DNA of 41,553 bases, from contig CAUJFM010000145.1 of assembly GCA_963169595.1 (NCBI GenBank), positions 1-41,553 of the forward strand, read 5' to 3'. Shown piece by piece: positions 3,992-40,490 of this stretch. The DNA comes from Bacteroidota bacterium. Its GTDB lineage: Bacteria > Bacteroidota > Bacteroidia > Flavobacteriales_F > PHOS-HE28. How positions within the stretch are numbered: position 1 is the first letter of the stretch; each line of letters begins with the position of its first letter. The notes beneath the pieces were generated by a model that was given only the letters and a program-made list of their open reading frames with translations, was not told the origin of the DNA and searched no databases. Both the position numbers and the translations under genes were made by a program.

Positions 3992-4414
3992 ATGACCACC
4001 AAGCACCTTCCCCTCACCGTTTCCGAGGCCATCGGCCATGTGCGCGCTTTCCATGAGGCCTTCGGTATCCCCAACGCAGAGGCGCCCACCGCATCCATCG
4101 GCGATCGGGACGCGTTGCTCCGCTACAAGCTGATCCGCGAGGAGAACGAGGAGTACCTGGAAGCCGCGTTGAAAGGCGACCTCGTGGAGGTGGCCGATGC
4201 CCTGGGCGACATCCTCTACATCCTCTGCGGCACCCTGCTCAAGCATGGGCTGGAACACAAGATCGACGAGGTGTTCCGCGAGATCCAGCGCAGCAACATG
4301 AGCAAGCTCGGCGCCGATGGAAGGCCCATCTACCGCGAGGATGGCAAGGTGATGAAAGGACCTGCGTACTTCAAGCCGGATATCGCGCGCATCCTGGAGG
4401 GGAGTGAAGGGTGA
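3992..4414 (+). CDS. MazG-like nucleoside triphosphate pyrophosphohydrolase family protein
   Basis: 140-aa ORF with the EENEEYLEA ... EVADALGDILYI acidic helix pair typical of all-alpha NTP pyrophosphohydrolases. A -7 box TACCTTCG lies 4 nt upstream of the ATG. Confidence 0.75.
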   Translation: MTTKHLPLTVSEAIGHVRAFHEAFGIPNAEAPTASIGDRDALLRYKLIREENEEYLEAALKGDLVEVADALGDILYILCGTLLKHGLEHKIDEVFREIQRSNMSKLGADGRPIYREDGKVMKGPAYFKPDIARILEGSEG

Positions 4415-4474
4415 AGGGAGGAAGGAGGAAGGAAAAAGGAGAAAGGAAGAAGGAGAAAGGAAAAAGGAGAAAGA
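4414..4474 (+). repeat. 61-nt uninterrupted polypurine tract with internal 15-nt direct repeat GGAAAAAGGAGAAAG (4431 and 4459)
   Basis: By direct reading there is no pyrimidine between 4414 and 4474. The tract starts on the last base of the mazG-like stop codon and is a near-mirror repeat centred on GGAAGAAGG. Confidence 0.9.
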
Positions 4475-9596: not shown

Positions 9597-10970
9597 TTAT
9601 TGCATGTAGGTCACCTTGAACTCCACCCGGCGGTTCTTGGCACGGCCGGCCGGAGTGCTGTTGTCGGCCACGGGCTCCGTCTGCCCGAAGCCCTCGCTGC
9701 GCAGGCGGTCACCGCCCACTCCTTTCTTCACCAGGTACTCCCGCACGGCGGCCGCCCGGTCCTTGCTCAACTGCAGGTTCTTGTCGGCATTCCCCGTGTT
9801 GTCCGTGTGGCCGTGGATGTCCAGTTCATAGGAGGGGTTCTCCTGCATCACCTTCACCACATCGTTGAGGATGGGGAAGCTGGACGATTTGATCTTGGAA
9901 CTGCCGGTCTCGAACTGGATGCCGGTGAGGGCCTTCTCGAAGAGCTTCTTCGTCTCTTCCTTCAGTTCGGGACAGCCCCGCATGGAGGCCACACCGGCGA
10001 CCTTCGGGCAGCGGTCGTCCGGATCGATGATGCCATCACCGTCCGTATCGGGGCATCCGCTCTGGTTGGCGGGGCCGGCCGCGTCCTTGCAGCGGTCGTC
10101 CTTGTCGGCGATCCCATCACCGTCCGTGTCCGGGCACCCCTTTGTGGATGCCGGGCCGGCCTGGTCGGGGCAGCTGTCCTCCTTGTCCACGATGCCGTCC
10201 TTGTCGCGGTCATCCTCCGGCTTCAGGCGCACTTCCACGCCATCGATGTAGTAGTAGGCGCGCTGCTGGTCCCAGCCTTCCACCGCGTTCTCCTTCTTCA
10301 TGTCGGCCTCGGGGAAGGCGCCGATCACCACGAAGCGCTCCGTTCCGTCCGCCGTGAACACGCCGGTGACCGTGGTCCAGTTCTGGCGGTCGCGGACCAC
10401 CTCCTTGTGCACCACGTCGGGCATCTCCATGATGGGGCCGCAATGGCGCAGGGCCACTTCATTGGGGGCCATATAGGCTCCGATGCCGCTCACCGCACGG
10501 TCGCTGTTCCCGGCCAATTTCACCTGGAACTTCACCACGTACTTCTGCCCAGCCGTGAGGGGGGAGCCCAACGCGATCTGCAGGTATTCGGTGTACGGGT
10601 TCCAATCCGTCATGTCGTGCTTGTTCCACCACATCGGCTCGTTCAGGGCCTTGGGCCAAGTGGGGTGCTGCTCGTCCTTCCAAGCGACGAACCCGGCATA
10701 GGAGACCCCTTCGAACGCCTCGGTTGAGCCTTGGTCGTTCTGCGGGATGCCCACCGTGTTCGAGGCGGCACCTTTGCCGTAGACATCCACGGAGCCGAGG
10801 TTGGCGTTGCTCCAGCCGGTGGCGCGGTCTAGCTGGTCCCATGTGGTCACCGGTTCGGCGAGGGTTTCGAAGCCCCCGTTCTGGACCAGGTTGGGGTGCT
10901 GGTCCTGCGCGGTGACCACAGGGGCCAGGGCCCCTGTGGTCAGCAGCATGAGGAAATGGTTGTACTTCAT
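9597..10970 (-). CDS. OmpA-family outer membrane protein with thrombospondin type-3 (Ca-binding) repeats
   Basis: 457-aa ORF with a signal peptide and repeated D.DGDGI.D..D.CP motifs (DTDGDGIADKDDRC, DTDGDGIIDPDDRCP). The C-terminal OmpA-like domain includes IHGHTDNTGNADKNLQLSKDRAAAV and NRRVEF. Confidence 0.85.
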   Translation of the reverse strand: MKYNHFLMLLTTGALAPVVTAQDQHPNLVQNGGFETLAEPVTTWDQLDRATGWSNANLGSVDVYGKGAASNTVGIPQNDQGSTEAFEGVSYAGFVAWKDEQHPTWPKALNEPMWWNKHDMTDWNPYTEYLQIALGSPLTAGQKYVVKFQVKLAGNSDRAVSGIGAYMAPNEVALRHCGPIMEMPDVVHKEVVRDRQNWTTVTGVFTADGTERFVVIGAFPEADMKKENAVEGWDQQRAYYYIDGVEVRLKPEDDRDKDGIVDKEDSCPDQAGPASTKGCPDTDGDGIADKDDRCKDAAGPANQSGCPDTDGDGIIDPDDRCPKVAGVASMRGCPELKEETKKLFEKALTGIQFETGSSKIKSSSFPILNDVVKVMQENPSYELDIHGHTDNTGNADKNLQLSKDRAAAVREYLVKKGVGGDRLRSEGFGQTEPVADNSTPAGRAKNRRVEFKVTYMQ

Positions 10971-16979: not shown

Positions 16980-18410
16980 TCAGTGCACGCTCAGCTTCTT
17001 CTCGAGGTCCTCGAGGTAGCCGCGGAACTGCTTGTCCGTCTCGTGCAGGTTGTTCACGGTGCGGCAGGCGTGGAGCACGGTGGCGTGGTCCTTGCCACCG
17101 CAGTGCGCGCCGATGCTGGCCAGCGAGCTCTTCGTCATCTTCTTGGCGAAGTACATCGCGATCTGGCGGGCCTGCACCACCTCACGCTTGCGCGTCTTGC
17201 TCTTGAGCAGCTCGATCGGCAGGTTGAAGTAATCGCACACCACCTTCTGGATGTAGTCGATGCTCACCTCGCGCGCCGTGTTCTTCACGAACTTGTCGAT
17301 CATCTGCTTCGCGAGATCGAGCGTGACGGCCTTCTTGTTCAGCGAGCTCTGGGCGATGAGGCTGATCATCGCACCCTCGAGTTCACGGATGTTCGTGGTG
17401 ATGCTGTAGGCCAGGTATTCGACCACCTCCTTCGGCAGGTCGATGCCCTCGGCATACATCTTCTTCTCCAGGATGGCGATGCGTGTCTCCAGGCCCGGGG
17501 TCTGCAGGTCCGCGCTCAGGCCCCACTTGAAGCGGGAGAGGAGGCGCTGCTCCATGCCGGCCATCTCCACAGGTGCCTTGTCGCTGGTGATCACCAGCTG
17601 CTTGCCGTTCTGGTGCAGGTGGTTGAAGACATGGAAGAACACGTCCTGCGTCTTCTCCTTGCCGGCGAGGAACTGCACATCATCGATGATGAGCACGTCC
17701 ATCATCTGGTAGAACTGCGTGAAGTCGCCGACGGTGTTGTTCTTCACTGCCTCGATGAACTGCTGTGTGAACTTCTCGGCAGGTACGTAGAGGATGGTCT
17801 TGTCCGGGTGGTTGCGCTTGATCTCGATGCCGATGGCATGCGCGAGGTGCGTCTTGCCGAGGCCAACTCCACCATAGATCAGCAGCGGATTGAAGGCGGT
17901 GCCGCCGGGCTTCTGGGCCACGGCATAGCCGGCACTGCGGGCCAATCGGTTGCAGTCCCCTTCGATGAAGTTCTCGAAGGAATAGTTGGGGTTCAGGTGG
18001 CTCTCGACCTTGATCTTGCGCAGGCCGGGGATGATGAACGGGTTCTTGATGGGGCTGTTCGCCACATCGATCGGCAGTGACACCGCAGGGTTCTTGGTCT
18101 CACGCGCATTGCTCGTGGGCACCTTCACCGTGTACGGATTGGCGTTCTGGTAACCGTTCTCCATGATGATGGAGTACTCCAGCCGCCCGTCGGGTCCCAG
18201 CTCCTTGCGGATGATCTTCTTCAGCAGTCCGATGTAATGTTCTTCCAGCCATTCATAGAAGAACTGCGACGGTACCTGGATGGTGAGCACATGGTCCTGC
18301 AGCTTCAAGGCCTTGATCGGCTCGAACCAGGTCTTGAAGCTTTGCTGGCTGACGTTGTCCTTGATCACCTCGAGGCACCGCTCCCAGATCTTCTCGTGGT
18401 CCTTCTTCAT
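16980..18410 (-). CDS. dnaA: chromosomal replication initiator protein DnaA
   Basis: 476-aa ORF with Walker A GGVGLGKTHL, Walker B LIIDDVQF and the C-terminal DNA-binding helix GGKDHATVLHA. Confidence 0.97.
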   Translation of the reverse strand: MKKDHEKIWERCLEVIKDNVSQQSFKTWFEPIKALKLQDHVLTIQVPSQFFYEWLEEHYIGLLKKIIRKELGPDGRLEYSIIMENGYQNANPYTVKVPTSNARETKNPAVSLPIDVANSPIKNPFIIPGLRKIKVESHLNPNYSFENFIEGDCNRLARSAGYAVAQKPGGTAFNPLLIYGGVGLGKTHLAHAIGIEIKRNHPDKTILYVPAEKFTQQFIEAVKNNTVGDFTQFYQMMDVLIIDDVQFLAGKEKTQDVFFHVFNHLHQNGKQLVITSDKAPVEMAGMEQRLLSRFKWGLSADLQTPGLETRIAILEKKMYAEGIDLPKEVVEYLAYSITTNIRELEGAMISLIAQSSLNKKAVTLDLAKQMIDKFVKNTAREVSIDYIQKVVCDYFNLPIELLKSKTRKREVVQARQIAMYFAKKMTKSSLASIGAHCGGKDHATVLHACRTVNNLHETDKQFRGYLEDLEKKLSVH

Positions 18411-25913: not shown

Positions 25914-26807
25914 ATGGACCCTCGTTTCCGCGGCCTCGGTGTCGCCCTCGTCACGCCCTTCCGTTCCAATGGCCAGATCGACTATGCTGGTCTGGAGAAG
26001 CTCATCGACCACCAGATCGCCGGTGGCGTGGACTATGTGGTGAGCATGGGCACCACTGGTGAGAGCGTCACCCTCACCAAGGCCGAGAAGAAGGAGCTCC
26101 TCGCGCAGACCATCGGCTTCGTGCGCAACCGCGTGCCCGTGGTGCTGGGCGTGGGTGGCAACAACACCGCCGAGGTCATCGAGAGCCTCAATGCCTTCGA
26201 CATGGACGGCGTGGACGCCATCCTCAGCGTGAGCCCCTATTACAACAAGCCCACGCAGGAGGGCATCTATCAGCACTACAAGGCGATCGCCCAGGTGGCG
26301 CTGCGGCCCATCATCCTCTACACCGTGCCCGGCCGCACCGGCAGCAACATGACGGCCGAGACCACCCTGCGGCTGGCCCGGGACTTCAAGAACATCATCG
26401 CCATCAAGGAGGCCAGCGCCAACCTGGACCAGATGGGCCGCATCCTCAAGCACAAGCCGAAGGACTTCATGCTCATCAGCGGCGACGATGCGCTCACCCT
26501 GCCCATCATCGCCATGGGCGGTGTTGGTGTGATCAGTGTGGTGGGCAACGCGCTGCCCTGGGAGTTCAGCACCCTGGTGAACGCGGCGCTGAAGGGCGAC
26601 CTCGATACCGCCCGCCGCGAGCATCTGCGCCTCATCGAGGTCATCGACCTGCTCTTCGTGGAAGGCAATCCCGGCGGCATCAAGGAGACGTTGAAGATCC
26701 TCGGCATCTGCGGGAACGCGGTACGTCTGCCGCTGGTGAACGTGAGCGAGGCCACCTCCAGGAAGCTCTACCAGGCCTTGGCGGATGCGGAGGTGGTGAA
26801 GCTGTGA
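25914..26807 (+). CDS. dapA: 4-hydroxy-tetrahydrodipicolinate synthase
   Basis: 297-aa ORF with GVALVTPF, GTTGES, YNKPTQEG and the catalytic-Lys region IIAIKEAS. Confidence 0.95.
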   Translation: MDPRFRGLGVALVTPFRSNGQIDYAGLEKLIDHQIAGGVDYVVSMGTTGESVTLTKAEKKELLAQTIGFVRNRVPVVLGVGGNNTAEVIESLNAFDMDGVDAILSVSPYYNKPTQEGIYQHYKAIAQVALRPIILYTVPGRTGSNMTAETTLRLARDFKNIIAIKEASANLDQMGRILKHKPKDFMLISGDDALTLPIIAMGGVGVISVVGNALPWEFSTLVNAALKGDLDTARREHLRLIEVIDLLFVEGNPGGIKETLKILGICGNAVRLPLVNVSEATSRKLYQALADAEVVKL

Positions 26808-26818
26808 GCCCTCTCATG

Positions 26819-26857
26819 TGGCTGGAAATTCGCCACGCCATGGCGAATTTCCAGCCA
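26819..26857. repeat. perfect palindrome copy A: TGGCTGGAAATTCGCCA-cgcca-TGGCGAATTTCCAGCCA
   Basis: It has 17-bp perfectly complementary arms and a 5-nt loop. It lies 12 nt after the dapA stop and 1 nt before the ATPase stop. No T-tract follows on either strand. Confidence 0.95.
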
Positions 26858-26858
26858 T

Positions 26859-28094
26859 CTACCACTCCCACAAGGCGCTCAACGGCACCGCGTGGATGTC
26901 CTTGTCGAAAGGTGTGATGCCCAGGCCCGGGTGCAGCAGGATGCCGCGCAGCCACTTGTCGCCCGCCACTTCCCGCAGGTGCTTCAGCCCGGCCACATCG
27001 TTGCTGCCAACGGCCATGGCGGCCTTCACCTCGATGCCCACGATGCGGCCCTTGTTGTCCTCCAGCACGATGTCCACCTCACGGCCCGCCTCGGTGCGGA
27101 AGTGGTAGGCCTTCACCCGCGCTTTGCTCCACCCGGCCAGCTTCCGCAGCTCGTTCAGCACGAAGGTCTCCAGCAACGGCCCGAAGGACGGGCTTTGGAG
27201 GATGTCCGCCGGCTTGTCGATGCCCGCCAGATGCGCCGCGAAGCCGCTGTCGGCCAGGTGCAGTTTGGGGGCCTTCACCAGCCGCTTGCCCCGGTGCGCG
27301 TGCCAGGCCTCCACAGGTGTGCTCAGGAAGGTGGCCTCCAGCAGGGCCATGTACCGCCGCATGGTGCTGTGGGGGATGTCCAGCGTCCGTGACAGGTCCG
27401 CCAGGTTCAACAGACCACTGCTCCGCACCGCCAGCGCCTGCAACAGCCGGGGCAGATCGGTGAGCCCGGTGATATTGCTGATATCCCGTACGTCCCGTTG
27501 CAGGATGCTCGTAATGTAGGCGCCGTACCACGCGCCCCTGCGCGCCGGGTCCTTGCGGGTCATCACCTCCGGGTAGCCACCGGCGATCACCCGTGCGGCG
27601 ATCTGCTTGCGCTCCAAGGCCGTGGGGTCCGTCATCTTCGGCCTGGCCGCGAAGACCTGGTCGATGAAGGTGCTCTTCCGGCCCGCCAGTTCATCCTGTG
27701 CGAAGGGGTACAGGGGGAGTATCTCCATCCGTCCGGCCAGGGAGTCGCCCAGCCGGGGCAGCACCAGCACGTTGGCGCTGCCCGTGAGCAGGAACCGCCC
27801 CGGTCTCCGGTCACGGTCCACTGCGGCCTTGATGGCCCGGAAGATGTTGGGCGCGTTCTGCACCTCGTCGATCACCGCCAGCCTGCCCAGCCCCTGGATG
27901 AAGGCGGGCGGGTCGTTCAGCGCGGCCTCCAGGGTGGGGTGGTCATCCAGCGTCACGTAACGGGCGCCCCGCTCCCGCGCGATGGCCTTCACCAGTGTGG
28001 TCTTGCCGGTCTGCCGCGCGCCGTGCAGCAGCACCACGGGGGTGTCCTTCAGCGCGATATCCACGGCATGTCTCAGGTTCCTGGACCGTTCCAT
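26859..28094 (-). CDS. AAA-family ATPase with winged-helix region and C-terminal DUF4143 (PD-(D/E)xK-like) domain
   Basis: Trimmed to the ATG at 28094 (MERSRNL...). Walker A is HGARQTGKTT and Walker B is LAVIDEVQ. The C-terminus has a restriction-endonuclease-like motif, REVDIVLED...IVGIEVK. The -7 box TATCTTCG lies at 28099-28106. Identical palindromes flank the gene. Confidence 0.85.
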   Translation of the reverse strand: MERSRNLRHAVDIALKDTPVVLLHGARQTGKTTLVKAIARERGARYVTLDDHPTLEAALNDPPAFIQGLGRLAVIDEVQNAPNIFRAIKAAVDRDRRPGRFLLTGSANVLVLPRLGDSLAGRMEILPLYPFAQDELAGRKSTFIDQVFAARPKMTDPTALERKQIAARVIAGGYPEVMTRKDPARRGAWYGAYITSILQRDVRDISNITGLTDLPRLLQALAVRSSGLLNLADLSRTLDIPHSTMRRYMALLEATFLSTPVEAWHAHRGKRLVKAPKLHLADSGFAAHLAGIDKPADILQSPSFGPLLETFVLNELRKLAGWSKARVKAYHFRTEAGREVDIVLEDNKGRIVGIEVKAAMAVGSNDVAGLKHLREVAGDKWLRGILLHPGLGITPFDKDIHAVPLSALWEW

Positions 28095-28098
28095 GTTA

Positions 28099-28106
28099 CG
28101 AAGATA
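28099..28106 (-). promoter_or_regulatory. -7-like element (TATCTTCG) for the DUF4143 ATPase gene
   Basis: On the minus strand it reads GCTATCTTCGTAAC-ATG, 4 nt upstream of the ATG at 28094. It lies between palindrome B and the gene. Confidence 0.45.
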
Positions 28107-28136
28107 GCTTTGGACGTATGGATATTGGTCATGAAG

Positions 28137-28175
28137 TGGCTGGAAATTCGCCACATCATGGCGAATTTCCAGCCA
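28137..28175. repeat. perfect palindrome copy B: TGGCTGGAAATTCGCCA-catca-TGGCGAATTTCCAGCCA
   Basis: Its arms are identical (34/34 nt) to copy A and only the loop differs. It shares the upstream flank TCATG..GTGGC. It lies 43 nt upstream of the ATPase start, inside a divergent promoter region. Confidence 0.95.
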
Positions 28176-28227
28176 CGTGTTCCGGGCCTGCTCCTGGAAG
28201 GTGTGTCCGGGAAGCGCCACGGCATGC

Positions 28228-28245: not shown

Positions 28246-28857
28246 ATGGACTTCCTCGCCCTCGACTTCGAGACCGCCACACCGCAGGCCGACAGCCCCT
28301 GCGAACTGGGCATTGCCGTGGTGCGTGGCGGGGTGGTGCGCGAGGTGCGCAACTGGCTCATCAAGCCGCGGCAATGGCCCTACTTCAGCCCATGGAACGT
28401 GGCCGTGCACGGCATCCGGCCCGATGACGTGGCCTCGTCGCCGCGCTGGGACGACATCTGGGAGGAGGTCGCGGACCTGCTGGACGGCAGCACGGTGGTG
28501 GCGCACAATGCGGCCTTCGACATGACGGTGCTCCGCAGCACGCTCGCCAGCCACGGTCTGCCGCATCCCACCTTCCATTACTTCTGCAGCGTGAGCATGG
28601 CACGCCGGGTGTGGCCTGGTCGCACCTCCTACGGCCTCGGGCCCATGTGCGCCTTCCACGGCATCCCCCTGCGACACCACCGCGCAGGCAACGATGCCGA
28701 GGCCACGGCCGAGCTGGTGCTGCGTGCCACCGCCAACAAGGCAGACAGCGACATCGCCCGATTCCTGCTGGACACCAAGGTCAAGGTCGGGGCGTTCTAT
28801 CCCGGCGGGCACCGCACACCCGGCGGCAAGGTGGTGACCGCGGCCTTCCCGGGTTGA
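28246..28857 (+). CDS. DEDDh 3'-5' exonuclease (DnaQ/epsilon-like, stand-alone)
   Basis: Trimmed to the ATG at 28246. The three exonuclease motifs are Exo I LALDFETA, Exo II VAHNAAFD and Exo III HRAGNDAEA. Confidence 0.85.
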   Translation: MDFLALDFETATPQADSPCELGIAVVRGGVVREVRNWLIKPRQWPYFSPWNVAVHGIRPDDVASSPRWDDIWEEVADLLDGSTVVAHNAAFDMTVLRSTLASHGLPHPTFHYFCSVSMARRVWPGRTSYGLGPMCAFHGIPLRHHRAGNDAEATAELVLRATANKADSDIARFLLDTKVKVGAFYPGGHRTPGGKVVTAAFPG

Positions 28858-30641: not shown

Positions 30642-31763
30642 TCAGTTGTTCAACATCACCGGCATCACCAGCATCAGGATATCCTCGCCCACCTCACCGG
30701 CCTCACCGGGCAGCAGGATGCCGGCGCGGTTCGGCGCGCTCATCTCCAGCATCACGTGCTCGGTGGAGAGGTTGTTGAGCATGTCCATCAGGAAGCGCGA
30801 GTTGAAGCCGATGGTGATCTCCTCGCCCTCGTAGGCGCAGGTCAGCGACTCCTTCGCCTCGTTGGCGTAGTCCAGGTCCTCCGCGCTGATGGTGAGCTGG
30901 CTGCCGTTGATGTGGAGGCGCACCTGGTGCGTGGTCTTGTTGGAGAAGATGCTCACCCGGCGGATCGAGCTCAGGAAGGTCCCGCGGTCGATCGTCAGCT
31001 TGTTCGGGTTGGTCTTCGGGATCACCGCCTCGTAGTTGGGGTACTTCCCGTCGATCAGCCGGCACACCAGCACGGTGTTGTCGAACTTGAAGGCGGCGTT
31101 GTTCTCGTTGAAGTCCACGGTCACTTCCGAGTTGGAGGCGCCCAGGGTGTTCTTCAGCAGGTTCAGCGGCTTCTTGGGCACGATGAAGGAGGCGGCCTTC
31201 GGGGCCTGAATGTCGGTGCGCTTATAGCGGACCAGCTTGTGGGCGTCGGTGGCCACGAAGCGCACATCCTCCTCGGTGAGCTCGAAGAAGATGCCGCTCA
31301 TCACCGGACGCAGGTCGTCGTTGCCGGTGGCGAAGATGGTCTTGTTGATGGCCGTGGCCAGGGTACCGGCGGGCAGGTTGAAGCTGGTGGCGCCCTCCAG
31401 CACGGGGCTCTTCGGGAACTCGGCCCCGTTGAAGCCGGTCATCTTGTACTTGCCCTGCTCGCTGCTGATCTCCACCCCGTGGTGCTTGCCATCGATGGAG
31501 AAGGTGAGGGGCTGCTCGGGAAAGGCCTTCAGCGTGTCCAGCAGCAGGCGGGCCGGGATGGCCACGCTGCCCTTCTCCTTGGCCTCCACGGCCATGGTGG
31601 CGGTGATGGTGGTCTCCAGGTCGCTGGCGGTCACCGTCAGTTGCTTGCCGTCGATCTCGAACAGGAAGTTGTCGAGGATGGGGAGCGTATTGCTGCTGGC
31701 GAGCACGCCCTGGAGCAGCTGGAGCTGTTTGAGCAGGGCGGTGCTGGATACGATGAATTTCAT
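30642..31763 (-). CDS. dnaN: DNA polymerase III subunit beta (sliding clamp)
   Basis: 373-aa ORF with MKFIVSSTALLKQLQ, LPILDNFLFE, the three-domain clamp length and a C-terminal MPVMLN. Confidence 0.95.
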   Translation of the reverse strand: MKFIVSSTALLKQLQLLQGVLASSNTLPILDNFLFEIDGKQLTVTASDLETTITATMAVEAKEKGSVAIPARLLLDTLKAFPEQPLTFSIDGKHHGVEISSEQGKYKMTGFNGAEFPKSPVLEGATSFNLPAGTLATAINKTIFATGNDDLRPVMSGIFFELTEEDVRFVATDAHKLVRYKRTDIQAPKAASFIVPKKPLNLLKNTLGASNSEVTVDFNENNAAFKFDNTVLVCRLIDGKYPNYEAVIPKTNPNKLTIDRGTFLSSIRRVSIFSNKTTHQVRLHINGSQLTISAEDLDYANEAKESLTCAYEGEEITIGFNSRFLMDMLNNLSTEHVMLEMSAPNRAGILLPGEAGEVGEDILMLVMPVMLNN

Positions 31764-35399: not shown

Positions 35400-35470
35400 A
35401 TCCGGCGTTCCCGGCCGCACCGAGCCGTTCCTCGATCCGGTGCTTTTGTTCCATGCTGCCAGCCCCCACC

Positions 35471-35542
35471 ACTCGCCACTCGCTACTCGCCACTCGCCAC
35501 TCGCCAACTCGCCACTCGCCAACTCGCTACTCGCCACTCGCC
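35471..35542. repeat. tandem heptanucleotide array, 10 units of ACTCGCY (two units carry an extra A); 44-nt higher-order period
   Basis: The units are ACTCGCC ACTCGCT ACTCGCC ACTCGCC ACTCGCCA ACTCGCC ACTCGCCA ACTCGCT ACTCGCC ACTCGCC. The array lies between the TPR gene stop (35547) and the gldF promoter/start (35377). Confidence 0.95.
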
Positions 35543-35546
35543 ACGC

Positions 35547-38723: not shown

Positions 38724-39676
38724 CCACCGCACACCCCGGGACACTGATGCGTTCCGACCTCCAGCACCCGCTCATCACCAACGTCTACCGCGGCAAGGTG
38801 CGCGATGTGTACACCCTGTCCGACGGCCGCATCATCCTGGTGGCCAGCGACCGCATCAGCGCCTTCGATGTGGTGCTGCCGCGCGGCATCCCCCACAAGG
38901 GCCAGGTGCTCAGCCAGCTCAGCTGGCACATGCTCGGCCTTACGCGCCAGGTGGCGCCCAACTGGGCCGAGGCCTCGCCCGACCCCAACGTGGTCATCGG
39001 GGCCGCCTGCAGCACGGTGAAGGTGGAGATGGTGGTGCGCGGCTACCTCGCCGGCCACGCCTGGCGCACCTACCAGGCCGGTGGGCGCACGCTGTGCGGG
39101 GCCGCCCTGCCCGAGGGGATGAAGGAGAACGACCGCTTCCCCACACCCCTCATCACGCCCAGCACCAAGGCCGATGTGGGGCACGATGAGGACATCACCC
39201 CCGACGAGATCCTGGCGCGCGGCCTCTGCACGCCGCAGGAGTGGGACACCATGCAGCGCTACGCCCTGGCGCTCTTCGCCGAGGGCAGCCGCATCGCCGC
39301 CGAGCGCGGCCTGCTGCTGGTGGACACCAAGTACGAGTTCGGACGCACCCCCGATGGCCGCATCCTGCTCATCGACGAGGTGCATACGCCCGACAGTTCC
39401 CGCTACTTCTACGCCGACGGCTATGCCGAACGCCAGGCCAGCGGCGAGCGCCAGAAGCAGCTCAGCAAGGAGTTCGTGCGCGAATGGCTCATCGCCGGCG
39501 GCTTCATGGGCAAGGAGGGCCAGCAGGTGCCCCCCATGGACGATGCCTTCGTGCAGAGCGTCACCGAGCGCTACGTGGAGCTCTACGAGCGCATCACCGG
39601 CCAAGCTTTCCACCCCGCACCCACGGAGGACATCAACGTGCGGATCCAGCAGGCGCTGGAAGCTTACCTCGGCTGA
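38720..39676 (+). CDS. purC: phosphoribosylaminoimidazole-succinocarboxamide synthase (SAICAR synthetase)
   Basis: 318-aa ORF with YRGKVRDVY, DRISAFD, EMVVRGYLAG, PSTKA, LLLVDTKYEFG and DEVHTPDSSR. There is an ATGA overlap with phoH. Confidence 0.95.
   Translation: MTTAHPGTLMRSDLQHPLITNVYRGKVRDVYTLSDGRIILVASDRISAFDVVLPRGIPHKGQVLSQLSWHMLGLTRQVAPNWAEASPDPNVVIGAACSTVKVEMVVRGYLAGHAWRTYQAGGRTLCGAALPEGMKENDRFPTPLITPSTKADVGHDEDITPDEILARGLCTPQEWDTMQRYALALFAEGSRIAAERGLLLVDTKYEFGRTPDGRILLIDEVHTPDSSRYFYADGYAERQASGERQKQLSKEFVREWLIAGGFMGKEGQQVPPMDDAFVQSVTERYVELYERITGQAFHPAPTEDINVRIQQALEAYLG
39566..39622 (+). repeat. direct repeat, left copy (inside intact purC 3' end)
   Basis: This 57-nt segment is 53/57 identical to 40382-40438. 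Confidence 0.9.
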
Positions 39677-40356: not shown

Positions 40357-40490
40357 AAAGGCTTCCTTGGTCCACAGCGCCGAACGCTACGTGGAGCTCT
40401 TTGAGCGCATCACCGGCCAAGCTCTCCACCCCGCACCCCGAGGATAGCAATGCCCGCATGCATCGGGCGGTATCAGAGTACTTGGGGTAG
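40357..40490 (+). pseudogene. decayed duplicate of the purC 3' end (frameshifted remnant)
   Basis: Positions 40382-40438 match purC 39566-39622 at 53 of 57 nt. The tail encodes EDSNARMHRAVSEYLG* against purC EDINVRIQQALEAYLG*. The spacing to the stop differs by 2 nt, so the two halves are out of frame. No upstream purC body is present. Confidence 0.75.
40382..40438 (+). repeat. direct repeat, right copy (inside purC 3' remnant)
   Basis: This 57-nt segment is 53/57 identical to 39566-39622. Confidence 0.9.

What the first reader, a model, noticed from the sequence alone, without database searches (positions are those of the whole stretch)
26811..28180. Two identical perfect 39-bp palindromes bracket a single ATPase-nuclease gene between dapA and an exonuclease gene
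TGGCTGGAAATTCGCCA-N5-TGGCGAATTTCCAGCCA occurs at 26819-26857 and again at 28137-28175. All 34 arm positions are identical between the two copies. The 5-nt loops differ (cgcca and catca), which is the stem-conserved, loop-free pattern expected of a structure under selection. A short left flank (TCATG..GTGGC) is also shared. The copies enclose exactly one gene with its own -7 promoter box, the AAA/DUF4143 ATPase at 26859-28094. Copy A sits between convergent genes and could pass for a terminator. Copy B sits in a divergent promoter region where a terminator makes no sense, and neither copy is followed by a T-tract. Each copy is palindromic, so the pair is at once a direct and an inverted terminal repeat. 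That geometry is expected if a cassette inserted into, or was mobilised through, a pre-existing hairpin, as with REP/RAYT elements, IS200/IS605 hairpin ends or hairpin-targeting IS110-type insertions. No transposase is present here. A hairpin-delimited ATPase plus PD-(D/E)xK cassette is not an element type I know to be described.
Basis: partly seen in the sequence, partly recalled or inferred. Interest (0 to 1): 0.72.

Follow-up and report, generated by a model that had tools for sequence, protein, structure and literature searches.

The report
Paired palindromic binding sites flanking ATPase-nuclease gene
The two identical palindromes are real and occur only at this locus; they are most likely DNA sites recognised by the ATPase-nuclease they flank (a common, uncharacterised candidate phage-defence protein), not the ends of a mobile element, although recombination between them has deleted the gene cleanly in some relatives.

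Summary
Perfect palindromes lie at 26819-26857 and 28137-28175 with identical arms. They bracket one AAA_14/DUF4143 gene (PADLOC candidate PDC-S01).

The element is not a genome-wide REP. In 185,579 species genomes the pattern hit 15 stretches, and 14 were this same dapA/ATPase/exonuclease locus in Flavobacteriales/Bacteroidota MAGs. Across 43 distinct copies, 11 of 19 stem pairs show compensated changes, and the core TTCGCCAC-N3-GTGGCGAA is almost invariant.

Single-palindrome "empty" sites exist (L021, L039). They nest inside gene-bearing clades on a dapA tree, so they are clean deletions between the two direct-repeat copies, not ancestral targets. The gene has stayed next to dapA down to 58% identity. 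The window holds no recombinase or transposase.

The key new result concerns 17 distant homologues (32-68% identity), most on plasmids. They carry two or three repeat units at a 22-bp period just upstream of the start codon. The motif appears to track the predicted winged-helix recognition helix (a comparison made by eye). The window palindrome is two inverted 19-bp units in that same register.

Best reading (confidence 0.55): these are the protein's own operator-type sites, duplicated at both gene ends in this clade. The mobile-cassette reading is only partly supported.

The parts
26819..26857 (.). Palindrome copy A (17+5+17). It starts 1 nt after the ATPase stop codon and 11 nt after the dapA stop codon, between these convergent genes. 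It consists of two inverted 19-bp RTGG-N11-CCAY units, 22 bp centre to centre.
   Evidence: In 16 of the 20 relatives where both the ATPase 3' end and the palindrome were seen, it starts 1 nt after the ATPase stop. Covariation is shown.
28136..28176 (.). Palindrome copy B (18+5+18). It ends 42 nt upstream of the ATPase ATG and lies 70 nt upstream of the divergent exonuclease ATG. It is the predicted operator of the ATPase promoter.
   Evidence: The spacing to the ATG is 41-43 nt in 15 of 18 relatives but variable on the exonuclease side. Equivalent 22-bp-register repeats lie upstream of distant homologues.
26859..28094 (-). AAA+ ATPase / winged helix / PD-(D/E)xK nuclease gene (AAA_14 + DUF4143; PADLOC candidate PDC-S01), 411 aa.
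   Evidence: Pfam. PADLOC PDLC04790, E = 1.2e-161. Invariant Walker A, Walker B and D341/E355/K357. AF2 model, pLDDT 86.6. Foldseek matches to 2qen/2fna, RuvB, Hda and Card1.
28099..28106 (-). Predicted Bacteroidota -7 promoter element TATCTTCG, 4 nt before the ATG. This implies a leaderless or near-leaderless mRNA that does not contain copy B.
   Evidence: Read from the sequence. It is conserved in L001, L013 and L050 and as TATCTTTA in L048. Promoter assignment rests on the known Bacteroidota consensus TAnnTTTG and is an inference.

Best explanation
Each palindrome is a pair of inverted 19-bp units (RTGG-N11-CCAY, with invariant inner half-sites TTCGCCAC/GTGGCGAA) spaced 22 bp centre to centre. 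I infer that these units are recognition sites for the winged-helix domain of the AAA+/winged-helix/PD-(D/E)xK protein encoded between them.

Copy B lies immediately upstream of the gene's promoter elements and would act as an autoregulatory operator. This arrangement is shared with distant homologues across several phyla.

In one Flavobacteriales lineage a second copy (A) abuts the stop codon. It would act as a second binding site (looping or roadblock) and/or as a 3' hairpin that separates the gene from convergent dapA transcription.

Each palindrome reads the same on both strands, so the two copies are also 39-bp direct repeats 1,318 bp apart. Recombination between them explains three things seen in relatives: clean single-palindrome deletions, tandem duplication, and palindrome-separated arrays.

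Shown here: the locus specificity, the linkage to the gene, the covariation, the 22-bp register across the family, the fold with a winged helix, and the derived status of the empty sites. Inferred: actual binding by the protein, autoregulation, and the role of copy A.
For: 1. Locus specificity. A scan of 185,579 species genomes gave 15 stretches; 14 are this dapA/ATPase/exonuclease locus and 1 is a chance hit. The metagenome scan gave 13 stretches, all at this locus.
2. Fixed geometry relative to the ATPase. Copy B is 41-43 nt from the ATG in 15 of 18 loci. Copy A starts 1 nt after the stop codon in 16 of 20 loci. Distances to dapA and the exonuclease vary.
3. Near-invariant core over 43 distinct copies.
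4. Family-wide upstream arrays. In 17 homologues at 32-68% identity (mostly plasmid-borne, from Pseudomonadota, Thermus and Cytophagales), self-similarity in the 130 nt before the start peaks only at lag 22. The mean best score is 14.2 of 22 matches, against about 9.2 at every other lag from 8 to 40 and in shuffles (sd 0.38). Azotobacter and Pseudomonas plasmid homologues have the same 19+3+19 palindrome type, with 12 of 17 arm positions shared with the window.
5. Protein-motif correlation (by eye, about 20 sequences). The recognition helix HST(L/M)RRY goes with TTCGCCA both in the window, L003 and L017 of this clade (HTTLRRY in L050) and in L049, which sits in an unrelated context. LNHVTTQKY goes with TTTCAWTTGG in both L059 and L061.
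6. Structure. The confident AF2 model has an AAA+ domain, a lid, a winged helix and a PD-(D/E)xK domain. The nearest solved folds are archaeal AAA+/winged-helix proteins, RuvB, Hda/DnaA and ORC. Two plasmid homologues are annotated as ArsR/HTH regulators.
7. Repeat-mediated rearrangements. L021's flanks are orthologous to the exonuclease-side flank of copy B and the dapA-side flank of copy A. L037 carries an ATPase 3' remnant plus palindrome that is 92.7% identical to the resident copy. Within-genome copies are more alike than between-genome copies (stem distance 5.0 vs 6.5, permutation p = 0.002).
Against: 1. No binding data exist. The protein-motif correlation is small and was judged by eye.
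2. Protein contacts alone do not explain the strict compensation at non-conserved stem positions (11 of 19 pairs, 0 of 500 shuffles). Either selection for a hairpin or cruciform, or neutral quasipalindrome template-switch correction, must be added.
3. Perfect palindromes persist where the ATPase is gone. L039 has arms identical to the window's. L021 has two further compensated changes that alter the otherwise conserved outer GTGG. This suggests a function independent of the adjacent gene, unless a paralogue exists elsewhere in those genomes.
4. The downstream copy is absent from the six plasmid homologues checked and from L048, so its role is specific to this clade and remains unexplained.
5. 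The extra OMP and hydrolase genes between palindromes in L025 and L038 are not easily produced by simple unequal exchange.
Confidence: 0.55

Rival explanations
1. The element is a structural hairpin and nothing more. It would act in RNA (or as extruded DNA) as a bidirectional terminator, insulator or 3'-end stabiliser for dapA, the ATPase and, in some lineages, the DUF58 gene. The upstream copy would be a duplicated terminator that shields the ATPase promoter from read-through.
For: The hairpins are very stable. Stem covariation is strong. Copy A abuts the stop codons of convergent genes. In the DUF58 lineage the upstream copy starts 1 nt after the stop of the co-oriented DUF58 gene. The palindrome survives loss of the ATPase (L021, L039, L027, L032). 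Canonical T-tract terminators are not enriched anywhere in the window, so the missing T-tract counts for little.
Against: A purely structural element should not keep an invariant 8+8-nt core across lineages whose other intergenic DNA is unalignable. In the window, copy B lies between divergent promoters and upstream of the predicted -7 boxes, so it is probably not transcribed. Distant homologues have direct 22-bp repeats that cannot fold. No comparable hairpin follows any other gene in the window. There is no Rfam match.
Confidence: 0.15
2. The ATPase-nuclease plus its hairpins would be a mobile or self-excising cassette. The hairpins would be recombination sites, used by the encoded PD-(D/E)xK nuclease or by an unlinked recombinase, comparable to attC, pdif or IS200-type ends.
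For: Single-hairpin empty sites have exactly the junctions expected. Arrays of palindrome-bounded genes exist: ATPase, then an OMP beta-barrel gene, then an alpha/beta hydrolase gene (L025, L038). Several imperfect copies look like chimeras of two arm types, as if crossover occurred in the centre (L029_up, L025_mid, L038_mid). The two copies evolve in concert. Homologues at about 50% identity on plasmids of other phyla show that the gene family moves horizontally.
Against: Every Flavobacteriales copy sits next to dapA, and the ATPase's divergence broadly follows dapA's. The empty sites are derived, with at least four independent losses nested in occupied clades. Other losses are untidy truncations that ignore the palindromes (L027, L032). 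No integrase or transposase lies in the 41.5-kb window or in the surveyed flanks. attC R/L boxes and extrahelical bases are absent. The locus is about 10 kb from dnaA and shows no GC-skew switch, so it is not dif. Homologues elsewhere have the repeats only upstream. Plain homologous recombination between 39-bp direct repeats explains the clean deletions and the duplication.
Confidence: 0.12
3. The palindrome is the operator of an unlinked host transcription factor that regulates dapA, the exonuclease or the ATPase. It would not be bound by the ATPase itself.
For: The dyad-symmetric site with an invariant core and 22-bp register is typical of dimeric regulators. The site is retained next to dapA after the ATPase is lost.
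Against: The site occurs at one locus only per genome, whereas a regulon would have more. Its spacing is fixed relative to the ATPase, not to dapA or the exonuclease. Analogous arrays accompany homologues in very different hosts, on plasmids, with motifs that appear to track the homologue's own recognition helix.
Confidence: 0.08

Closest known systems
Iteron arrays and inverted-repeat operators of self-regulated DNA-binding proteins (e.g. plasmid RepA/RepE-type initiators; archaeal Orc1/Cdc6 with ORB elements next to its own gene)
   Same: Repeat units of about 19 bp lie at a 22-bp (two helical turns) period directly next to the gene for a protein with a winged-helix domain. Some lineages use an inverted pair and others use direct repeats. 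The motif co-varies with the protein.
   Different: The protein here is an AAA+/winged-helix/PD-(D/E)xK nuclease of unknown function, not a replication initiator. The gene is chromosomal and vertically inherited. A second site sits at the 3' end of the gene. The arms are perfectly complementary, with compensated changes.
Integron gene cassettes bounded by attC sites (including chromosomal arrays with species-specific homogeneous repeats, and CALINs)
   Same: The geometry is site-gene-site, with occasional site-gene-site-gene-site arrays. Clean loss leaves one site. The repeats are homogeneous within a genome and differ between species. The sites are palindromic and could fold.
   Different: There are no R''/L''-L'/R' boxes (RYYYAAC/GTTRRRY) and no extrahelical bases. 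No IntI, attI or Pc was seen. The cassettes carry their own promoters and lie in mixed orientation. The ATPase has been resident and syntenic for a long time.
REP/REPIN elements with RAYT transposases; IS200/IS605 hairpin ends
   Same: Short, stable palindromes with conserved sequence plus compensated stems, lying in intergenic DNA.
   Different: There are at most three copies per genome, all at one locus, instead of tens to hundreds. No HUH (Y1) transposase is present. Both ends are identical perfect palindromes.
dif/Xer sites with integrated IMEX elements or pdif modules
   Same: A single-locus site is duplicated on both sides of inserted genes, with arrays of modules.
   Different: The locus is about 10 kb from dnaA, not at the terminus. 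There is no GC-skew switch. The architecture is 19+3+19 perfect, not 11-6-11 imperfect.
PDC-S01 (PADLOC phage-defence candidate; AAA_14 + DUF4143, COG1373)
   Same: The enclosed gene is a full-length, high-scoring member (E = 1.2e-161). Its Walker motifs and its D...ExK motif are all intact.
   Different: My literature searches found nothing published on cis-elements for this family. Defence activity is itself untested for most PDCs (PMC12988326).

Membership tests
REP/REPIN (RAYT-associated) | Tens to hundreds of dispersed intergenic copies per genome | tested here: not met
   The genome-contig scan returned one locus per genome, with 1-2 exact pattern matches per genome (up to 3 copies at the locus once degenerate copies are counted). 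The window has only the two copies, even when 3 mismatches are allowed.
REP/REPIN (RAYT-associated) | Cognate HUH Y1 (RAYT) transposase gene | tested here: not met
   None is present among the Pfam-annotated ORFs of the 41.5-kb window. The rest of the genome could not be searched.
IS200/IS605 | TnpA (Y1) and/or TnpB encoded between imperfect, non-identical subterminal hairpins | tested here: not met
   The only enclosed gene is AAA_14/DUF4143. The two ends are identical perfect palindromes.
Integron cassette / attC | attC with inverse core RYYYAAC and core GTTRRRY, and extrahelical bases in the folded strand | tested here: not met
   The arms are GTGGCTGGAAATTCGCCAC and its complement. They are perfectly paired and have no core-site motifs.
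Integron cassette / attC | Adjacent intI integrase with attI and Pc | tested here: not met
   No tyrosine recombinase is present in the window or in the flanks of L001-L019.
Integron cassette / attC | Arrays of different genes separated by the repeat | tested here: inconclusive
   Seen in only 2 lineages (L025/L035/L040 and L038), with 1-2 extra genes. ATPase remnants beside the extra genes suggest duplication followed by replacement.
dif / Xer IMEX | Site at the replication terminus (GC-skew switch) | tested here: not met
   dnaA lies at 16980-18410 and dnaN at 30642-31763. GC skew has the same sign on both sides of the locus.
Intrinsic (Rho-independent) terminator | GC-rich hairpin followed by a U-tract, downstream of a gene | tested here: not met
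   Neither strand of either copy has a T-tract. Copy B lies between divergent genes. Caveat: canonical terminators are not enriched in this window at all.
Autoregulatory operator / iteron-type array | Repeated units in helical register next to the gene of the binding protein | tested here: met
   There is a unique lag-22 autocorrelation peak across 17 homologues. The window palindrome is 19+3+19, which gives a 22-bp register.
Autoregulatory operator / iteron-type array | The protein has a sequence-specific DNA-binding domain | tested here: met
   The AF2 model shows a winged helix at about residues 211-275. The nearest solved folds are RuvB, ORC and archaeal AAA+/winged-helix proteins. This is a prediction only.
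Autoregulatory operator / iteron-type array | The protein binds the sites and represses or activates its own promoter | not testable with these tools
   Only correlative support exists: the recognition helix appears to track the motif.
PDC-S01 (PADLOC) | Full-length match to the family HMM, with ATPase and PD-(D/E)xK domains | tested here: met
   PDLC04790, E = 1.2e-161, residues 4-410. The catalytic residues are invariant.
PDC-S01 (PADLOC) | Anti-phage activity | not testable with these tools
   The literature describes experimental validation as pending for most PDCs, and reports none for PDC-S01 (PMC12988326).

The most novel reading that the evidence does not exclude
The AAA+/winged-helix/PD-(D/E)xK protein and its flanking hairpins could form a self-contained recombination module. 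The protein would bind and cut extruded cruciforms at its own boundaries. It would thereby excise, duplicate or exchange the DNA between palindromes, and occasionally capture other genes (the OMP and hydrolase units in L025 and L038). That would be a new kind of hairpin-bounded cassette system that needs neither a tyrosine, serine or HUH recombinase. It would also give a biochemical activity to the very widespread PDC-S01 family.
Probability: 0.08. Interest if true: 0.85.

Novelty: new variant of a known kind. Interest (0 to 1): 0.5.

Why it matters
AAA_14/DUF4143 (PDC-S01, COG1373) is reported as the fourth most common defence candidate across prokaryotes, yet it has no known ligand, target or regulation (PMC12988326; my searches for DUF4143, COG1373 and PDC-S01 found nothing on cis-elements).

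This analysis predicts a DNA site for the family: 19-bp units at a 22-bp period whose sequence appears to track the winged-helix recognition helix. That gives experimenters concrete probes for binding, regulation and nuclease assays.

The Flavobacteriales arrangement is also an unusually clean natural example of a gene's own paired sites acting as direct repeats. It shows how that geometry makes the gene precisely deletable and duplicable. It also shows how a perfect palindrome can be kept perfect over long divergence, whether by selection or by template-switch correction.

Tried and rejected
- Generic REP: rejected. The pattern occurs at one locus per genome.
- Known RNA family: there is no meaningful Rfam match; the only hits were miRNA-like noise well below the gathering thresholds.
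- Canonical intrinsic terminator: no T-tract. This test is weak because such terminators are not enriched anywhere in the window.
- dif/terminus: rejected. dnaA and dnaN are nearby and GC skew does not switch.
- Integron, transposon or recombinase: none was found in the window or in relatives' flanks.
- Viral association: the full pattern has 0 hits in viral contigs. The 16-nt core has 4 hits, none next to the ATPase, dapA or the exonuclease.
- The (GTGGCGA)n heptamer microsatellite at 35469-35544 looked like a possible array of half-sites. A near-identical strain has a rearranged array, and a 68% relative has a different heptamer at the same place. It is therefore unrelated.
- Exact-sequence look-ups of the window's ATPase and dapA found nothing on record, so within-population polymorphism could not be examined.
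- Strand bias of G·T wobbles was checked to separate RNA-level from DNA-level pairing. At the loop-closing pair the counts were 8 against 3. At the outermost pair they were 3 against 6 in the opposite sense. There is no consistent bias.
- Sequence search of solved structures gave only generic Walker-A hits.
Full report
OBSERVATION

The window contains TGGCTGGAAATTCGCCA-N5-TGGCGAATTTCCAGCCA at 26819-26857 (copy A) and 28137-28175 (copy B). The arms are identical and the loops are cgcca and catca. Chance expectation for the 17-mer is 0.12 hits even with 3 mismatches allowed, and four arm hits were found. As RNA, the 71-nt stretches around each copy fold at -33.5 to -39.9 kcal/mol, z = -5.4 to -7.7.

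Between the copies lies one gene (26859-28094, minus strand) with AAA_14 and DUF4143 domains. dapA (25914-26807) converges on it from the left. An RNase_T/DEDDh exonuclease gene (28246-28857) diverges from it on the right. Neither copy is followed by a T-tract. The only weak point is the 'shared left flank', which does not recur in the relatives whose flanks were read.

DISTRIBUTION

I scanned one genome for each of 185,579 species with GGAWWTTCGCCANNNNNTGGCGAAWWTCC. This gave 15 stretches. Fourteen are Flavobacteriales/Bacteroidota MAGs, and tblastn places every one at the same dapA/ATPase/exonuclease locus. The fifteenth (Saccharicrinis) has none of these genes and is probably chance.

The metagenome scan gave 13 stretches, all at this locus. 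The viral scan gave none. No genome showed a copy anywhere else.

The element is therefore neither a REP nor a general terminator motif. It is specific to one locus and tied to this gene neighbourhood.

CONSERVATION AND COVARIATION

I collected 43 distinct copies and aligned them without gaps. The inner core TTCGCCA-N5-TGGCGAA is invariant or nearly so. The outer GTGG/CCAC is at least 90% conserved. The positions in between vary.

On the 19-pair stem, 93% of cells are paired. Eleven of 19 pairs show changes on both sides (54 cells), and one pair has four Watson-Crick types. None of 500 shuffles, and no slid register, approaches these values. Dyad symmetry is thus actively maintained.

I checked for strand bias in G·T wobbles, which might have indicated an RNA on one strand. 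The counts were small and pointed in opposite directions at two positions. Pairing could therefore matter in RNA, in single-stranded DNA or in a cruciform.

A neutral mechanism is also possible. From established knowledge, quasipalindrome template-switch mutagenesis converts imperfect inverted repeats into perfect ones.

HISTORY OF THE LOCUS

The ATPase lies next to dapA at 98%, 85%, 81%, 70%, 68% and 58% identity. Meanwhile the far side changes: exonuclease plus rhomboid/dnaN, exonuclease plus rplT/infC/thrS, exonuclease plus rimM with restriction-modification genes, or a DUF58 gene. ATPase identity broadly follows dapA identity: the highest and lowest values coincide, although mid-range values scatter. 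This is long-term vertical inheritance.

Copy B ends 41-43 nt before the ATG in 15 of 18 loci. Copy A starts 1 nt after the stop codon in 16 of 20 loci. Distances to dapA and the exonuclease vary from about 10 to more than 300 nt. Both copies therefore belong to the ATPase gene, not to its neighbours.

EMPTY SITES, REMNANTS AND ARRAYS

- L021 has dapA, one perfect palindrome and the exonuclease gene, with no ATPase. Its flanks are orthologous to the exonuclease-side flank of copy B and the dapA-side flank of copy A.
- L039 has the DUF58 gene, one palindrome and dapA. L050-L052 show the same context with the ATPase and palindromes on both sides.
- L027/L043/L045 and L032 keep only a C-terminal ATPase fragment plus the downstream palindrome.
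- L037 has an ATPase 3' remnant plus palindrome in front of a full copy. The two are 92.7% identical over 151 nt, which indicates a tandem duplication.
- L025 has palindrome, ATPase, palindrome, an OMP beta-barrel gene and a third palindrome.
- L038 has the ATPase, 8 nt of a palindrome, a frameshifted OMP gene, an ATPase 3' remnant, a palindrome, an alpha/beta hydrolase gene and a final palindrome.

On a dapA neighbour-joining tree the empty and remnant loci nest inside occupied clades. That implies at least four independent losses. The single-hairpin sites are therefore scars of deletion between the two copies, not ancestral targets.

Within a genome, the two copies are more alike than copies from different genomes (stem distance 5.0 vs 6.5, permutation p = 0.002). 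This fits occasional exchange between the copies.

WHAT THE PALINDROME IS

The decisive evidence came from distant homologues. In L050 and L017 the element is a double core with centres 22 bp apart. In L048 it is three 19-bp units at a 22-bp period, two of them direct repeats.

tblastn against plasmids found 289 records with homologues at 30-50% identity. I read 14 of them plus L048-L050. Most have two or three repeat units immediately upstream of the start codon. Three examples:
- Sulfitobacter: CTTTCAATTGGTCGG, three copies.
- Rhizobium: CCGGATTGGNCGAA, three copies.
- Azotobacter and Pseudomonas: a 19+3+19 palindrome, ATGGTGTAATTTCAACCAT-caa-GTGGATGAAATTACACCAT. It shares 12 of 17 arm positions with the window.

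A self-similarity scan of the 130 nt upstream in these 17 loci has a single peak at lag 22. The mean best score is 14.2 of 22 matches, against about 9.2 at all other lags from 8 to 40 and in shuffles (sd 0.38).

The window palindrome is two inverted 19-bp units (RTGG-N11-CCAY) separated by 3 bp, which is the same 22-bp register. Many homologues use direct repeats that cannot fold. The function shared across the family is therefore recognition of double-stranded DNA, not hairpin formation.

WHO BINDS IT

The AF2 model (pLDDT 86.6, pTM 0.87) shows an AAA+ domain, a lid, a winged helix (about residues 211-275) and a C-terminal PD-(D/E)xK domain. The nearest solved folds are the archaeal AAA+/winged-helix proteins 2qen and 2fna, RuvB, Hda/DnaA and ORC, plus the Card1 nuclease. 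Walker A, Walker B and D341/E355/K357 are invariant.

The predicted recognition helix appears to track the upstream motif. HST(L/M)RRY goes with TTCGCCA in the window, L003 and L017 of this clade (HTTLRRY in L050), and also in L049. L049 is a 56% homologue in an unrelated sucCD/pilS context that still has AAATTCGCCAT 27 nt before its ATG. LNHVTTQKY goes with TTTCAWTTGG in both L059 and L061. This comparison covered about 20 sequences and was judged by eye. Two plasmid homologues are annotated as ArsR/HTH regulators.

I therefore infer that the protein binds its own flanking sites. In the window, copy B lies just upstream of the promoter region. The conserved -7-like box TATCTTCG sits 4 nt before the ATG, which implies a leaderless transcript that excludes copy B. 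That placement fits an autoregulatory operator.

WHAT REMAINS UNEXPLAINED

- The role of copy A, which is specific to this clade.
- The strict arm complementarity.
- The persistence of a perfect palindrome where the ATPase has been lost. L039 has arms identical to the window's. L021 has two extra compensated changes in the otherwise conserved outer GTGG.

These points leave room for an added hairpin function, such as a terminator or insulator between convergent genes. Canonical T-tract terminators are not enriched anywhere in this window, so the missing T-tract is weak evidence against that. They also leave room for neutral palindrome correction.

The extra OMP and hydrolase genes between palindromes are the best remaining support for a recombination-site reading.

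COMPARISON WITH KNOWN SYSTEMS

The element fails the defining tests for REP/RAYT, IS200/IS605, integron attC, dif/Xer and canonical intrinsic terminators. For dif specifically, dnaA lies at 16980-18410, about 10 kb away, and GC skew does not switch. Details are in the membership table.

It behaves most like the iteron or inverted-repeat operator arrangement of self-regulated DNA-binding proteins. Here, though, it is attached to an AAA+/nuclease family (PADLOC PDC-S01; E = 1.2e-161). That family is very common, has no experimental validation reported, and has no described cis-element.

VERDICT

Its central claim of mobility is not supported.

The best explanation, at 0.55 confidence, is that these are gene-linked protein-recognition sites duplicated at both ends of the gene, and that the cassette-like deletions and duplications are by-products of that geometry.

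Novelty: a new variant of a known kind.

Interest is moderate (0.5). The value lies in a testable DNA site for a large uncharacterised family and in a neat evolutionary case, not in a new class of element.

Noticed in passing
window 35469-35544: A heptanucleotide microsatellite (GTGGCGA/GTAGCGA/GTTGGCGA on the minus strand, about 10 units) starts right after the stop codon of a TPR gene and lies upstream of an ABC-2 permease gene. Its unit equals the palindrome's half-site. However, a near-identical strain (L068) has a differently arranged array, and a 68% relative (L071) has a different heptamer (GTTGTCC) at the same place. It is a variable heptamer-repeat site unrelated to the palindrome.
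   Followed up: yes
window 16980-18410 (dnaA) and 30642-31763 (dnaN): dnaA and dnaN lie about 10 kb and 3 kb from the palindromes but are separated from each other by about 12 kb. The locus is therefore near the probable replication origin region.
   Followed up: partly
L025 2415-3303 (also L035/L040); L038 3815-5715: Extra genes sit between additional palindrome copies. One is an OMP_b-brl_2 protein with a perfect Bacteroidota -7 box (TATATTTG). In L038 there is also an alpha/beta hydrolase gene on the opposite strand, next to a 40-nt ATPase 3' remnant and an 8-nt palindrome stub.
   Followed up: partly
L030 4178-4512 and L034 1435-1768 (also L041): A low-GC insertion of about 335 bp carries a 106-aa ORF (MSEWGEYLERV...) on dapA's strand. 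It lies between the downstream palindrome and dapA and has no extra palindrome. It looks like recently acquired DNA.
   Followed up: no
L017 444-2267; L019 1179-2381: Two close relatives carry different restriction-modification genes just beyond the exonuclease/rimM genes: an EcoRI-like endonuclease plus a D12 methyltransferase in one, and a C5 DNA methylase in the other. The flank of this locus is therefore a variable, defence-type island.
   Followed up: no
window 39564-39622 and 40380-40438: A 59-nt direct repeat (93% identity). The 3' end of the SAICAR synthase (purC) gene is duplicated about 800 bp downstream, next to a nucleotidyltransferase (LinB-like) gene.
   Followed up: no
window 10005-10193 and 4413-4473: An 81-nt tandem repeat (2.3 copies) lies inside the OmpA-family ORF. 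A GAAAGGA heptamer repeat (8.7 copies) lies in the 5' part of the long MoxR-like ORF.
   Followed up: no
L023 6737-6775; L028 1862-1900; L044 2005-2043; L036 325-363: In these relatives the exonuclease-proximal outer arm of the upstream palindrome has been replaced by unrelated sequence, while the inner core and the ATPase-proximal arm are intact. The breakpoints therefore fall inside the palindrome.
   Followed up: partly
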